The translations under genes were made by a program, and so were the position numbers. From assembly GCF_009914755.1 (NCBI RefSeq), contig NC_060927.1: a stretch of DNA of 64,000 nt. One strand, 5' to 3'. The notes under the pieces were generated by a model. It did no database searches, had not been told where the DNA came from, and saw only the letters and a program-made list of their open reading frames with translations. Below, in pieces: positions 37,861 to 43,653 of the stretch. Each line of letters starts with the position of its first letter. Within the stretch, counting starts at the first letter, position 1. This DNA is from the human T2T-CHM13v2.0 reference genome, Homo sapiens.

Positions 37861-38892
37861 TCTTTTCTGAGTAGGTTATTCTAGTAGTTTTGAATCTTAG
37901 TCCAGATATTCAGCTGTGCAAAAAATATCTTTCCTTTCTCCAAATCAGTTGAATCTATTTTTTACGTATTTGCTGAGAAGGCAGAAATTTAACTTGAGTT
38001 ATTACTACTGACTTCACCAAATTGTGCCAAGTTGCTGAAGCCTAACTTAATACCTATGAATCAGGGACACTCATCAAATCATTTGCCATTAGTTCACACT
38101 GGACCCCATTCCAGCCTGTAGCATTCAGAGATCTGCTATGTTCCTGCCACTCTCTGAGAAAGGCCATCTTTGGAGGACATGAGGTACACTCTACCTAGAA
38201 GCTAGCCTATTTGGTGTTCCAGGTAGCAATTCCTTTGATGTCTTGCCGTCATCCAGAGTTAGAGCCATAGAGCACGGGTTATGTCTCCCCTACTTCTGTA
38301 ACCCCTTTAGTCTCTAACTTTTTTCTCCTCCTTTTCCTTAGCCACTAAAGTTCTCCTAACCTCTCTTCCCCTTCCAGAATATCTAGCATAATCTTTTTAG
38401 TGAGCTTGGCTACTTCTTAGAACTTGGGTGTAGAGATGTGTGTGGTGCATAATTATTACCTCATAAATTACTCCACTAAATTTGTTTTAATGAGGAGTTT
38501 GTAAATGCAAGGAATTAATTAGAAAAGTATCTAGTGGGTGAAATATTATTGCTAAAATTGAAGAATAGAAGCAGAATACAAATTTATATCTACTATGAAT
38601 ATGATGTCTTAAGAATCATGTATACTATTTGTAATGATGAGATAAATTATGAGAGTTTTTCTATCGCCATAAACTATGAAGTTGTGTGGGTGTGTGTGTA
38701 ATTTCTTAGGAAAAATGCATGTGTGTTATTTAACATACTAATGTTTGAGTTGGCCAATTTAAATTCAAAGAGTTAAAGAATACCGATTGATCATAATTAT
38801 GAGGTCATCCTTATTATATAAGTTATTCAGGGGAGGAGTGACTGTGAAAATTTGAAGAAAAGTTAAGAATTTTTTAGAAGTGTACCAGTACC

Positions 38893-40283
38893 GGTACCAA
38901 AACAGAGATATAGGCCAATGGAATAGAACAGAGCCCTGAGAAATAATGCTGCATATCTACAACTATCTGATCTTTGACAAACTTGACAAAAACAAGCAAT
39001 GGGGAAAGGATTCCCTATTTAATAAATGGTGCTGGGAAAACTGGCTAGCCATATGTAGAAAGCTGAAACTGGATCCATTCCTTACACCGTATACAAAAAT
39101 TAATTCAAGATGGATTAAAGACTTAAATGTTAGACGTAAAACCATAAAAACCCTAGAAGAAAACCTAGGCAATACCATTCAGGACATAGGCATGGGCAAG
39201 GACTTCATGTCTAAAACACCAAAAGCAATGGCAACAAAAGCCAAAATTGACAAATGGGATCTAATTAAACTAAAGAGCTTCTGCACAGCAAAAGAAACCA
39301 CCATCAGAGTGAACAGGCAAGTTACAGAATGGGAGAAAATTTTTGCAACCTACTCATCTGACAAAGGGCTAATACCCAGAATCTACAATGAACTCAAACA
39401 AGTTTACAAGAAAAAAACAAACAACCCCATCAAAAAGTGGGCAAAGGACATGAACAGACACTTCTCAAAAGAAGACATATATGCAGCCAAAAAATGCATG
39501 AAAAATTGCTCATCATCACTGGCCATCAGAGAAATGCAAATCAAAACCACAATGAGATACCATCTCACACCATTTAGAATGGCGATCATTAAAAAGTCAG
39601 GAAACAACAGGTGCTGGAGAGGATGTGGAGAAATAGGAACACTTTTACACTGTTGGTGGGACTGTAAACTAGTTCAACCATTGTGGAAGTCAGTGTGGCG
39701 ATTCATCAGGAATCTAGAACTAGAAATACCATTTGACCCAGCCATCCCGTTACTGGGTATATACCCAAAGGATTATAAATTATGCTGCTATAAAGACACA
39801 TGCACACGTATGTTTATTGTGGCACTATTCACAATAGCAAAGACTTGGAACCAAGCCAAATGTCCAACAATGATAGACTGGATTAAGAAAATGTGGCACA
39901 TATACACCATGGAATACTATGCAGCCATAAAAAAGGATGAGTTCATGTCCTTTGTAGGAACATGGATGAAGCTGGAAACCATCATTCTCAGAAAACTATC
40001 GCAAGGACAAAAAACCAAACACCGCGTGTTCTCACTCATAGGTGGGAATTGAACAATGAGAACAACTTGGACACAGGAAGGGGAACATCACACACCAGGG
40101 ACTGTTGTGGGGTGGGAGAAGAGGGGAGGGAAAGCATTAGGAGATATACCTAATGCTAAATGACGAGTTAATGGGTGCAGCACACCAACATGGCACATGT
40201 GTACCTATGTAACAAACCTGCACGTTGTGCACATGTACCCTAAAACTTAAAGTATAATAATAAAATAAAAAGAATAAAAAAAA
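38893..40283 (+). mobile_element. 5'-truncated L1PA4 (1.39 kb) with its first poly(A)
   Basis: 3'UTR diagnostics 'gctaaatgacgagttaatgggtgcagcacaccaacatgg' and 'cctaaaacttaaagtataataa'. 5' TSD at 38876-38892. Confidence 0.95.
38946..40052 (+). pseudogene. L1 ORF2p C-terminal 368 aa (Cys-rich domain), uninterrupted but lacking EN/RT
   Basis: 'YNYLIFDK...[15 protein letters not shown]...[26 protein letters not shown]...FSLIGGN*'. Confidence 0.92.
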
Positions 40284-40863
40284 GGATGAGACCCATTATT
40301 TTGCTTGCGAGCTAGATCCAAATATGAGTCACTATCTTAACTGTGGCCAGATCCACACATGAAGGTCACAATTCCTATTTTGTGTATTTACTTGTTAGAC
40401 TCAGGACCTTAAGAGTGGGCTTTTGAAATACGAAGTGATAAAAGTATTTACTTTCACCTGTGTGTGTAATCGAGAATTCTAATCTGAACTTCTTGCTGAT
40501 TCTTGTCATGAAACTCTCTGTACCACCCAAGGAGTTTACACACTATGAGGTACTGTTGTAAAGTTCTGTGAGCTTGGTACAAATATTCAACCCCAGACCT
40601 TACCTATTGCCCTAAGCCTAGCGATAAAAGGCAAAATATTTTTTATCGGCTGAATCGCAATATAAGATGGACAATCATGCCGGTGAACTGAAGTAAAGTA
40701 TATGTCATAGTCTTGTTTGTGAGCAAAAACTAGGCAGGGAGTTAACACCACTTAAATATTGTGCCAAAATCATGTCACAATGCACTCTTCAGGTAGGGTA
40801 TGGGAATCAGAGTCACATTAACTGAGTGCTGGACTAGGCAATATGAAACCTTCCCAAATGTGG
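40284..40863 (+). other. L1 3'-transduced segment; degenerate ~35-bp beta-satellite-related (BSR-like) repeat
   Basis: Lies between the L1 poly(A) and a second poly(A) (40864-40885), which is followed by the TSD (40886-40902). Repeated 'atgagtcac/gtcacaat' and 'agatcca' motifs occur at ~35-bp spacing. Confidence 0.85.
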
Positions 40864-43653
40864 AAAAAAAGAAAGAAAAAAAAAAGGAAGTATACCAGTA
40901 CCACAACCGAGGAATACAGGGAATCCTGAGCAAGCGGTATTATGAGGAGGCTGCTGGAGACTCGGTACTCTTGGAAAGGTTGTTATGAGATGGCTTAGGG
41001 TATAACAATTTAAGCTTTACTATGTGTACCACTTTATTGAAATTGCATTTTTAATCACAATGATTGTAGTTAAAGCATTCTAAGTGTGTACTGATAGTAA
41101 TCAAATTATTCTAAGTTGTAAAAAACTTGTAGAAAATAATGTAGACAAAATTTAACCTAGGAAAATTTCCAAACTAATTTTAGTGGTATAGGTGAGAAGC
41201 TGGTCAGTCGGTCAGCACGAGTAAAGAATGAAGTAACACTCTGAATTTATCCACATATATCATGGATCTTTAAGAAAATTCACATAGAGATATTCAAAAC
41301 AAATTATTTAAAGATCACTAGTGAGCAAACAAATGAAAACATTCTGGTTTTACTCATAAAAAGTGGTAGCTGTATGATAGTGTTTGGCTGATAAGAGTAT
41401 TAGAATGCTGAACATCCTCTATAGAAAATTGCACATATTCTTAACCTAGTAACAATAAAAGATGATGAGGAATGTCAACTCAGATTTAAAAACGAATCCT
41501 TACTTCCAAAAGTGAGAGACAAATAATAAATTAATGTTCATTCTATGGAAATGAAATTGAGATTCAAGTAGACCATGTATTTGATAAGAGCCCCAAATTA
41601 AAGCTGTATAGTTCAAGACTATAAAATGCTGTTATGTCTAATCACCCCCCAAATTATAATACCTCTTTTGTCAAGTAATGAAAACTTGATATAGAAAAGG
41701 ATACATCAGGCCGTTGTGGTTTTAGAAATCAAACAATATTTTCTGAGAATTGTTCTGAGCTAAAACAATAACAAAACCTCAGACTTTGGATTTGAAAGGG
41801 TTTACCTTAGTAGTCTGTTTAATTTATTTTTTAAACTTATTGCTGACCACAATCTGCCCATCTGTGTCACATTATAAAATATATTCTAAGTCTACAGTCT
41901 AATTGGGAATATAACTTTAGGAACATGGGAACTTTAGGGAAAAAGAAACTTTCTTGACAAGGTTGTATTTAAGCATTCTTTACTCAACTGACATAATCAA
42001 ATTATTCTGATAAAAATGAAAATATAGTAATTTTTGGATTATAGTTTCATGTTTCTATGAAAAACAGTTTGATCTTAGTGATGAATTTTGTACTTTCTGA
42101 CCTCCAATGTGATGTTAATGTGAACAGATCTGGGCAAACTAAATTCTGCTTCTGTTCCTTGGGGAGAGTTTTACAATCTTTGCAATTATCAGTGCCATGG
42201 CTGTACATGATCACAATCTCAATATTTTCAGTGTTATAGACTTAATATATAATTCTTTTACTGTCCATGAAAACACCATTGTGAGCAGTTTGTTCATCTA
42301 ATGAATCTCTTTCAATTTCTCTATTGACAAATGTGTTCTTTTGAAGGTTGTATCCCTTGCTTAAAGTCACCTCCAGCTATAAATTATTTTTTAAAACATC
42401 AAGAACTCAGTTGTGTCTGAACAGATGACTTTTTGGATTTTCCTTTACCTGATTGCTTAACATCACCCAGGTTTAGGTATTATTTTTAGCATATTGCCTA
42501 TACCAGTTGTTTTCAAATTAGCATAAGCAGTCTACTGAAATGGTTATGTGCACACACACACATACACATACAGAGTACTGTTTCTATGTTCCAGATTGAA
42601 TTGTTCATGGAACTACGATATAGAAATCACGGGAGAGGTCCTCTTGTACTTCCTTTTGAACTTTTCTGAGACCTCAGAGCAATTAAGGTTCCTCACACAA
42701 CAGTTTGAAAACTTCCTTTATCATTATACTGTTTGGTAAAAATTCTTTTGAAAGAAATAAAATGGTAGCCATATTTTTACATACAATAGTTCCAGAATAT
42801 TCTGCCAAACTTCTAAGAATAATTTAAAAGTAGATTTAAATCCTATTCCTTCTTTTTAACACCCTGACTTTGTTTTGCTCTCAATTAAGATTTTTTAGAG
42901 TTTCTCCAAAACTCCTTTTAGAAATAAGCGAAATCCTATTAGAAGCATGTGAAATATTTATATGGGGTCATTATTATAGGTCAAAACCACCCAGTTTTCC
43001 TGAAAAGAAGTACACAAGCACTCCAGCAATTTCCACTGTTATTTTATCTAACTCCTCTCAGCTCCCTTTTCCCCTGTCTTCTTTTTTCTTATGCTATATT
43101 AAGTACCTTACCTTTTCTGCAAGTCTCTCACCAGGATGCTTTGCAGATAAAATTTCCCTTTTGGGTAAAATGGGACAGATGAGAAGTAGGTTTTGGTGGT
43201 ACATAACTTTAATAGACACTAGGACTTTTTACATAGTGCCCTCTTATCATTCTTCTTTTTTTCAATATCTCCTCAACTATATTTTGAAACAGTGATATGC
43301 TCCTTCTAGTATTGTAAGTATTGCTTGTTTTTTGATTCTTTGCTATTACTTCCTTAATGATAAAATTCTTCCCTACTTACAGTTCTATTTTTGAGATTTT
43401 GGCCTTCAACACTATAGGATTTTTGTAGCGTACTCCATATTTGAAAATAATTTTCTTTATATTTTCAACTTCTTACATGTAAAGACTGATGGTTCTTCAT
43501 TTATTGTCGGAGATCTCTGCTTCTTGAGTTACCTTGACTTGATAATATATCTTGATATGTTAGTCATTTATAATGTATCTGAATGTTTCTTTGCTATGGT
43601 AAAATATATGATAGTGCTTTCATTTAATATTTATTGTATTTTATTAATTAGGA

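What the first reader, a model, noticed from the sequence alone, without database searches (positions are those of the whole stretch)
38876..40902. L1PA4 3' transduction carrying ~580 bp of foreign DNA inside one TSD
Seen: a TT/AGAA endonuclease-type site, TSD agaagtgtaccagtacc (38876-38892), a 5'-truncated L1PA4, poly(A) #1 (~40255-40283) with no TSD copy after it, 580 bp of non-L1 sequence, poly(A) #2 (40864-40885), then the TSD copy ggaagtataccagtacc (40886-40902, 15/17 identical). The TSD end also shares 'gtac' microhomology with the L1 truncation point. Established: this is the signature of L1 read-through past its weak polyA signal, with the downstream flank co-retrotransposed. Inference: 40284-40863 came from another locus and acts as a barcode for the source element. 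No canonical AATAAA precedes poly(A) #2 (only 'aatatgaaa'), so priming may have occurred on a genomic A-tract.
Basis: partly seen in the sequence, partly recalled or inferred. Interest (0 to 1): 0.8.

Follow-up and report, generated by a model that had tools for sequence, protein, structure and literature searches.

The report
L1 insertion carrying foreign flanking DNA
A truncated L1 jumping gene in an intron of EPHA6 dragged along about 590 bases copied from a repeat block that today sits near the centromeres of chromosomes 8 and 7 and on the Y; this is an ordinary, well-known kind of event, although the exact donor copy no longer exists in the human genome.

Summary
A 16-nt direct repeat (15 of 16 identical; 38877-38892 and 40887-40902) encloses four parts:
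- a 5'-truncated L1 covering ORF2p residues 906-1275 and the 3'UTR;
- the L1's own A-rich tail;
- 580 bp of non-L1 DNA;
- a second A-rich tract.
The repeat follows a TTTTTT/AGAA site.

The 580 bp is foreign to chr3. Both flanks are single copy. The segment belongs to a repeated module with about 1.75-kb spacing. That module is found only at chr8 47.0-47.3 Mb, chr7 56.8 and 65.6 Mb, and chrY 7.5-8.2 and 23.6-26.0 Mb. These are the 8q11/7q11/Y "green amplicon" (BPY2/TTTY) homology blocks.

The expected donor was not found:
- The best copy is only 81-82% identical.
- None of 39 paralogs has an L1 upstream.
- No sibling insertion exists.
- The L1 part shows only about 2.6% private change.
The donor monomer was therefore already an old, separate lineage and is not retained in T2T-CHM13.

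The segment ends exactly at an A-rich run that the family encodes (35 to 38 of 39 paralogs). No AATAAA or ATTAAA lies upstream.

Best reading: an ordinary L1 3' transduction (about 0.75). No outgroup empty-site test was possible. Interest is low.

The parts
38870..38879 (+). L1 endonuclease-type target site, TTTTTT/AGAA on the top strand (nick on the bottom strand at the left edge of the TSD)
   Evidence: Read directly. That TT/AAAA and its variants form the endonuclease consensus is recalled, not from a call.
38877..38892 (+). 5' copy of the target site duplication, GAAGTGTACCAGTACC (17 nt if 38876 is counted)
   Evidence: family D5, 15 of 16 identical. Background rate of such matches is 82 in 68.1 million pairs.
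38893..40255 (+). 5'-truncated L1 body: ORF2 C-terminal 385 codons (38895-40052, one internal stop) and the 3'UTR. GTAC at 38888-38891 is shared with the TSD end (microhomology).
   Evidence: Translation. Residues 906-1275 of solved human LINE-1 ORF2p, E about 1e-239. 95-96% identity to 39 other genomic copies, 40 scored of 14212 candidates. Junction comparison with 11 L1 copies.
40256..40283 (+). The L1's own A-rich tail (poly(A) #1), containing AATAAA. No target repeat follows it.
   Evidence: Comparison with the tails of 11 other L1 copies. One search reports no TSD-like repeat here.
40284..40863 (+). Co-inserted non-L1 segment: about one third of a ~1.75-kb repeated module of the 8q11/7q11/Y green-amplicon homology blocks. 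Family homology runs on to about 40875.
   Evidence: Block identity from PMC4370482.
40864..40885 (+). Second A-rich tract (poly(A) #2), AAAAAAAGAAAGAAAAAAAAAA. The first ~12 nt match an A/G run encoded in the family. The last 10 A have no counterpart in most paralogs.
40887..40902 (+). 3' copy of the target site duplication, GAAGTATACCAGTACC

Best explanation
This is an L1 3' transduction.

Proposed sequence of events:
- An L1PA-type element sat inside a copy of the repeated module that today fills the 8q11/7q11/Y green-amplicon blocks.
- Its transcript ran past the weak L1 polyadenylation signal and about 590 nt into the downstream flank.
- The RNA 3' end, or the start of reverse transcription, fell on an A-rich run encoded in that flank.
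- L1 ORF2p nicked chr3 at TTTTTT/AGAA in an EPHA6 intron and copied the RNA by target-primed reverse transcription.
- The cDNA stopped 1.39 kb into the L1 and was joined at a GTAC microhomology, leaving a 16-17-nt target site duplication.

Shown: the architecture, the L1 identity, the foreign origin of the segment, its family, and the encoded A-run.

Inferred: that the RNA began at an L1 promoter; that the donor L1 lay directly upstream of the segment; and an age of roughly 15 million years, taken from 2.6% private divergence.

The donor monomer itself is not retained in this human genome.
For: - One TSD (15 of 16) encloses the L1, tail 1, the segment and tail 2. No TSD follows tail 1. The chance rate of such a match is about 1e-6 per pair.
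- L1 identity: ORF2p residues 906-1275, a frame with one stop in 385 codons, and 95-96% identity to other copies.
- The flanks are single copy. The window holds no other piece of the family.
- The segment is an internal fragment of a longer unit. Homology among paralogs continues on both sides of it.
- In the paralogs, the segment's 5' edge falls at GGGTT[C/A]AG|GGATGAG. It reads TTAAGG in 11 of 39, and TTTAGG or TTAGAA in others. This is an endonuclease-like site where a donor L1 could have integrated.
- The segment's 3' edge falls on an A-rich run in 35 of 39 paralogs, plus 3 by eye.
- The non-L1 part lies 3' of the L1. That is the order expected for read-through. Catalogued template-switch or ligation chimeras have the opposite order (PMC11838501, passages).
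- About 25% of L1 insertions carry transductions, and 75 of 349 endpoints lack a strong PAS (PMC13009371, passages).
Against: - No donor was found. The best whole-segment match is 81% and the best half-segment matches are 82% and 81%.
- 0 of 39 paralogs have an L1 upstream.
- Only this locus spans the junction among the 40 scored of 1090 candidates.
- No sibling insertions were found.
- On the tree the chr3 copy sits on an unresolved polytomy with an end branch of 0.15 and no sister.
- Each search scored only 40 of its 137-236 candidates, so a closer copy is unlikely but not excluded.
- No canonical PAS lies before tail 2.
- Because the insertion is 5'-truncated, the promoter that made the RNA cannot be known.
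- No outgroup empty site could be examined.
Confidence: 0.75

Rival explanations
1. Passenger model. A host transcript from the testis-transcribed 8q11/Y-type block (a BEYLA/TTTY-like lncRNA) contained an embedded, dead L1 fragment. L1 proteins retrocopied that transcript in trans, like a processed pseudogene. The L1 piece was cargo, not the driver.
For: The product would look identical once 5'-truncated inside the L1. The blocks hold testis transcripts TTTY4, TTTY17 and BPY2/VCY2 and the BEYLA lncRNA (PMC4370482).
Against: L1 proteins prefer their own RNA (cis preference; recalled, also mentioned in PMC11838501). 3' transduction is common, at about 25% of insertions (PMC13009371). In the paralogs, the segment's 5' edge coincides with an endonuclease-like TT/A(A/G)GG site, as expected for an L1 integration site. 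That fits either model, but the passenger model also needs the L1 to lie within 2 kb of a transcript end.
Confidence: 0.12
2. Chimera made by template switching or RNA ligation. Reverse transcription began on a polyadenylated RNA from the repeat block. It then jumped to the poly(A) end of an L1 RNA, or the two RNAs were ligated first. This joined two unlinked RNAs inside one TSD.
For: One TSD with two A-tracts is compatible with this. No genomic locus with an L1 next to the segment exists in this genome.
Against: Catalogued L1 chimeras carry the other RNA 5' of the L1, because reverse transcription starts on L1 RNA. Here the order is reversed (PMC11838501, passages). The segment's 5' edge falls on an endonuclease-like site in the paralogs, which a random switch point would not predict.
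Confidence: 0.08
3. Two separate events with a coincidental repeat. Either the 580 bp was already at this chr3 site, or it arrived separately, and the L1 inserted beside it.
For: None beyond the missing donor.
Against: The 15-of-16 repeat abuts both outer junctions, and no repeat flanks the L1 alone. The segment is a lone one-third unit of a family otherwise confined to chr7, chr8 and chrY blocks, and it lies between single-copy flanks.
Confidence: 0.03

Closest known systems
L1 3' transduction (read-through of the L1 polyadenylation signal; first shown in cell culture and then in genome surveys around 1999-2000, recalled; recent figures in PMC13009371)
   Same: The order is L1 3' end, own A-tail, non-L1 flank, second A-tract, all inside one TSD at an endonuclease-type site. 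The L1 is 5'-truncated and joined at a microhomology.
   Different: The donor cannot be traced. The transduced piece comes from a multi-copy repeat block, and its nearest relative is only 81-82% identical. It ends on an encoded A-rich run with no AATAAA or ATTAAA. In PMC13009371, 274 of 349 endpoints had a PAS.
U6/L1 and other RNA/L1 chimeric insertions (template switching or RtcB ligation; PMC11838501, PMC6789731 listing only)
   Same: Two unrelated sequences lie in the same orientation inside one TSD.
   Different: In those chimeras the foreign RNA lies 5' of the L1. Here it lies 3' of the L1's own tail.
Processed pseudogene or retrocopy made in trans by L1
   Same: Poly(A) end, TSD, endonuclease site and 5' truncation.
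   Different: The copied RNA here contains an L1 3' end with its tail. That makes cis mobilisation by that L1 the simpler reading.
8q11 / 7q11 / Y green-amplicon homology blocks (BEYLA/LINC00293, BPY2/VCY2, TTTY4, TTTY17, BPY2DP; PMC4370482)
   Same: All relatives of the 580-bp segment lie at chr8 47.0-47.3 Mb, chr7 56.8 and 65.6 Mb, chrY 7.5-8.2 Mb, and in three near-identical chrY sets at 23.6-26.0 Mb.
   Different: The chr3 piece is a lone fragment of about 590 bp outside any block, delivered by retrotransposition. Equating the T2T coordinates with the named blocks is my inference from the paper's description, not a mapped annotation.

Membership tests
LINE-1 insertion made by target-primed reverse transcription | L1 sequence (ORF2 and 3'UTR) in one orientation, ending at the canonical 3' end | tested here: met
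   ORF2p residues 906-1275, E about 1e-239. 95-96% identity to 39 genomic copies. 3' end aligned with 11 copies.
LINE-1 insertion made by target-primed reverse transcription | A-rich tail at the 3' end of the inserted unit | tested here: met
   40864-40885, 20 A in 22 nt, directly before the 3' TSD.
LINE-1 insertion made by target-primed reverse transcription | Target site duplication flanking the whole insert | tested here: met
   15 of 16 identical. Background about 1e-6 per pair.
LINE-1 insertion made by target-primed reverse transcription | Endonuclease-type target (TT/AAAA-like) at the 5' edge of the TSD | tested here: met
   TTTTTT/AGAA. The consensus itself is recalled.
L1 3' transduction | The L1's own tail is followed by non-L1 DNA and a second tail, with the TSD only outside both | tested here: met
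L1 3' transduction | The non-L1 segment originates from another locus | tested here: met
   Relatives lie only in chr8, chr7 and chrY blocks. Flanks are single copy. The window holds no other family piece.
L1 3' transduction | A donor locus with the same segment directly 3' of an L1 in the same orientation | tested here: not met
   0 of 39 paralogs have an L1 upstream. The junction query matched only this locus among 40 scored of 1090 candidates. Best identity is 81-82%. The donor may be lost, so this lowers proof rather than excluding the mechanism.
L1 3' transduction | A polyadenylation signal 10-30 nt before the second tail | tested here: not met
   No AATAAA or ATTAAA in the last 50 nt. 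This is not obligatory: 75 of 349 endpoints lacked a strong PAS in PMC13009371.
L1 3' transduction | An empty orthologous site in outgroups lacking both the L1 and the segment | not testable with these tools
   No primate genomes are held. The own-genome tool states it has no relatives.
L1PA4 subfamily | Subfamily-diagnostic positions | not tested
   No labelled subfamily references were available. The only evidence is 36 of 1362 (2.6%) private differences against the majority of the 11 nearest copies. That fits a hominoid-age L1PA element; the L1Hs-L1PA5 range is 3.1-20.4 Myr per PMC5237266.
RNA/L1 chimera (U6/L1 type) | Foreign RNA fused to the 5' side of the L1 | tested here: not met
   The foreign segment lies 3' of the L1 tail. 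The family definition is from PMC11838501.

The most novel reading that the evidence does not exclude
The chr3 insert is a molecular fossil. It would be the only surviving copy of a monomer, or of a whole paralogous stretch, of the repeat block that gave rise to the 8q11/7q11/Y green-amplicon regions (BPY2/TTTY). An L1 living inside that testis-transcribed block captured it some 15 million years ago, and the original has since been lost from the human lineage. In addition, reverse transcription may have been primed on an encoded internal A-run of a longer read-through RNA rather than on a true poly(A) tail.
Probability: 0.3. Interest if true: 0.3.

Novelty: new member of a known kind. Interest (0 to 1): 0.2.

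Why it matters
It matters little on its own. It is a clean textbook example of L1 moving flanking DNA between chromosomes.

Two points have modest value:
- A transduced 'barcode' can fail to lead to a source when the flank comes from an old, fast-turning-over repeat block. This is a caution for source tracing.
- The insert preserves a dated snapshot of one unit of the block from which the Y-linked BPY2/TTTY amplicon region derives. That could help reconstruct the block's history if ape T2T genomes retain the donor.

Tried and rejected
- Naming the repeat family as the RepeatMasker satellite 'MER22' was a guess from memory. A paper search gave nothing that tests it, so I dropped it (listing only).
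- Tandem Repeats Finder found no arrays in two 10-kb stretches of the blocks. Its longest period is 500, so it is uninformative for a 1.75-kb spacing.
- BLAST of four 10-kb stretches showed only 2-3 copies of the segment per 10 kb, with spacings of 1552-4842 bp. The blocks are therefore not simple arrays.
- One L1 fragment lies near a chr8 copy (L064). It is in the opposite orientation and 1.6 kb away, so it is not a donor.
- Pfam found no family in the ORF2 C-terminal 370 residues. The PDB sequence search settled the identity instead.
- I looked for a 'paralogous empty site' by searching each flank. Both flanks are single copy, so no such test exists.
- I considered that the segment might be exactly one period of a ~580-bp sub-repeat, with A-rich sites recurring in register. 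A diverged (63%) copy does follow it, and ~75-nt sub-repeats recur. The structure is too irregular to build on.
- HML8/MER11 proviruses lie in the same blocks (PMC10194239), at about one per block. They cannot be this many-copy family.
- The Khan et al. 2006 L1 age paper was not held.
- A paper search for EPHA6 with LINE-1, transduction and intron returned 5 papers, 4 listed, none on this locus by title or abstract.
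Full report
**What is there**

Reading 38700-41100 shows, in order:
- a run of six T (38870-38875);
- AGAA and the 16-nt string GAAGTGTACCAGTACC (38877-38892);
- L1 sequence from 38893;
- an A-rich L1 tail, AATAATAAAATAAAAAGAATAAAAAAAA (40256-40283);
- 580 bp that is not L1 (40284-40863);
- a second A-rich tract, AAAAAAAGAAAGAAAAAAAAAA (40864-40885);
- GAAGTATACCAGTACC (40887-40902).

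The repeat finder reports the two 16-mers as a direct repeat, 15 of 16 identical. It reports no repeat linking the left target to the bases after the first tail.

As a background check I compared 68.1 million position pairs 1500-2599 nt apart in the window. Eighty-two matched at 15 or more of 16 (71 not low-complexity, in 13 clusters, most of them true repeats), which is about 1e-6 per pair. A repeat that abuts both outer junctions is therefore not chance.

**The L1 part**

- Frame 38895-40052 translates with one internal stop in 385 codons and ends at the ORF2 stop.
- Residues after that stop match residues 906-1275 of solved human LINE-1 ORF2p at E about 1e-239. Pfam gave nothing for this stretch.
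- The 1363-bp body is 95-96% identical to the 39 other best copies in the genome, from 40 scored of 14212 candidates.
- Against the per-column majority of the 11 nearest copies it carries 36 private differences in 1362 columns (2.6%). Those copies themselves carry 1.7-2.3%.
- This is a lower bound, because the neighbours were chosen for similarity. It fits a hominoid-age L1PA element. The L1Hs-L1PA5 series spans 3.1-20.4 Myr according to PMC5237266 (passages).
- At the truncation point, 11 of 11 related copies read GGTACTGGTACC. GTAC at the end of the TSD could therefore come from either the target or the L1.

**The 580 bp is foreign**

- Both chr3 flanks, searched separately, are single copy in the genome.
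- The 64-kb window holds no other piece of the family. Its other hits were Alu matches from an Alu inside one paralog.
- The segment itself has many relatives: 40 scored of 236 candidates, all covering essentially its whole length, at 74-81% identity.
- They lie at chr8 47.01-47.27 Mb, chr7 56.84 and 65.58 Mb, and chrY 7.47-8.15 Mb. Three near-identical sets lie at chrY 23.64-26.01 Mb.
- Among paralogs, homology continues on both sides of the segment. A second copy follows about 1745 bp later. The chr3 piece is thus an internal third of a longer repeated module.
- In four 10-kb samples the module recurs 2-3 times with spacings of 1552-4842 bp. It has diverged internal sub-repeats.
- PMC4370482 (sections and passages) describes homology between the Y 'green' amplicon g1-g3 (BPY2/VCY2, TTTY4, TTTY17), 8q11 (BEYLA/LINC00293) and 7q11, and a BPY2DP pseudogene at Yp 7.9 Mb.
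- The chromosomal pattern of the hits fits these blocks. That equation is my inference, not a mapped annotation.

**The donor was not found**

- The best match to the whole segment is 81%. The best matches to its halves are 82% and 81%. Every hit lies in the same blocks, so there are no dispersed siblings.
- All 39 paralogs examined have family sequence, not an L1 tail, directly upstream.
- A 181-nt query across the tail/segment junction matched in full only at this locus. The other 39 scored hits, of 1090 candidates, covered only the L1 tail.
- In a maximum-likelihood tree of the 40 copies, the chr3 copy sits on an unresolved polytomy with an end branch of 0.15 and no sister. Many other copies pair across chromosomes with full support and branches of 0.05-0.09.
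- The co-inserted L1 shows only about 2.6% private change. Most of the 0.15 must therefore predate the insertion.
- So the donor monomer was already an old, separate lineage of the family, and it (or its block) is not retained in this assembly.
- Only the best 40 candidates were scored in each search, so a closer copy is unlikely but not strictly excluded.

**The two edges of the segment, seen in the family**

- 5' edge. The paralogs read GGGTT[C/A]AG|GGATGAG at this position. It is TTAAGG in 11 of 39, TTCAGG in 14, TTCAAAA in 1, and among the other 13 are TTTAGG and TTAGAA. A T-run followed by purines is what an L1 endonuclease site looks like. The edge is therefore a plausible integration site of a donor L1, with the first bases of the segment being that element's own TSD. 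This is supportive, not decisive.
- 3' edge. Thirty-five of 39 paralogs have an A-rich purine run of 6 or more bases directly after the conserved ...ATGTG anchor. Three more (one Y triplet) have an A/C-rich run there by eye. One has a deletion. AATAAA or ATTAAA lies within 45 nt upstream in 1 of the 35, and not at all in the chr3 copy.
- Several paralogs read AAAAAAGAAA-like strings at this position. The first ~12 nt of 'poly(A) #2' are therefore probably templated, and the last ten A are either a true tail or a longer run in the donor.
- The data cannot tell whether the RNA was polyadenylated there without a canonical signal or reverse transcription was primed on the internal run. In a recent survey, 274 of 349 transduction endpoints had a PAS and the rest did not (PMC13009371, passages).

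**Mechanism and rivals**

- 3' transduction (about 0.75). The order L1, tail, flank, tail inside one TSD at an endonuclease-type site is the signature of L1 3' transduction.
- Passenger model (about 0.12). A host transcript of the testis-expressed block carrying a dead L1 fragment, retrocopied in trans, gives the same product after 5' truncation. It cannot be excluded without the donor.
- Chimera model (about 0.08). A template-switch or ligation chimera needs reverse transcription to start on the non-L1 RNA. Catalogued chimeras have the other RNA 5' of the L1 (PMC11838501, passages).
- Two independent events (about 0.03). The junction-abutting TSD and the lone, fragmentary nature of the segment argue against this.

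**What could not be done**

- No primate genome was available. The empty-site test and a donor search in other apes remain open.
- Supplements of the cited papers were not consulted.
- A word search for EPHA6 with LINE-1, transduction and intron found nothing on this locus by title or abstract.

**Verdict**

This is an ordinary event of a well-known class, with a small twist in where the cargo came from and where it ends.

Noticed in passing
window 39929-39941 and 40278-40290: The 13-mer AAAAAAGGATGAG occurs inside the L1 ORF2 region and again exactly at the junction of the L1 tail and the foreign segment (family D10). GGATGAG is native to the repeat family at that position, so this is probably chance. 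I did not quantify it.
   Followed up: partly
L005, L006, L008 (chrY 26.009, 23.674, 24.389 Mb), just after the A-run at locus position ~2090: An Alu-like insertion of about 334 bp begins right at the family's conserved A-run in these three Y copies. The same A-rich spot has attracted another retro-insertion.
   Followed up: no
L040-L042 (chrY 25.852, 24.232, 23.831 Mb), downstream of the segment end: The A-rich site is expanded to GAAACAAACAAAAACAAAAGTG followed by 19 A in this Y triplet. This could be tract growth or another tail; I did not examine it.
   Followed up: no
L064 7460-8229 (chr8 ~47.023 Mb): An L1 fragment 90% identical to the query L1 lies 1.6 kb from a family copy but in the opposite orientation. 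It is not a donor.
   Followed up: partly
window 31180-40978: The whole insert lies inside the 9.8-kb first exon of the predicted lncRNA LOC107986103 and in an intron of EPHA6, in sense orientation to both (hub annotation). The predicted exon ends 76 bp past the 3' TSD at AAAG|GTTGTT. I did not evaluate this.
   Followed up: no
L002 (chr8 47.2589-47.2624 Mb) and other family loci: The repeated module is hierarchical. A 63% identical copy of the segment follows it, and its last ~150 nt recur at roughly 75-nt offsets. I could not give the family a name. My remembered guess 'MER22' is untested.
   Followed up: partly
window 38880-38898: GTACC occurs three times in a row across the 5' junction (GTACCAGTACCGGTACC). 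Two of these lie in the target and are also present in the 3' TSD copy. One lies in the L1.
   Followed up: partly
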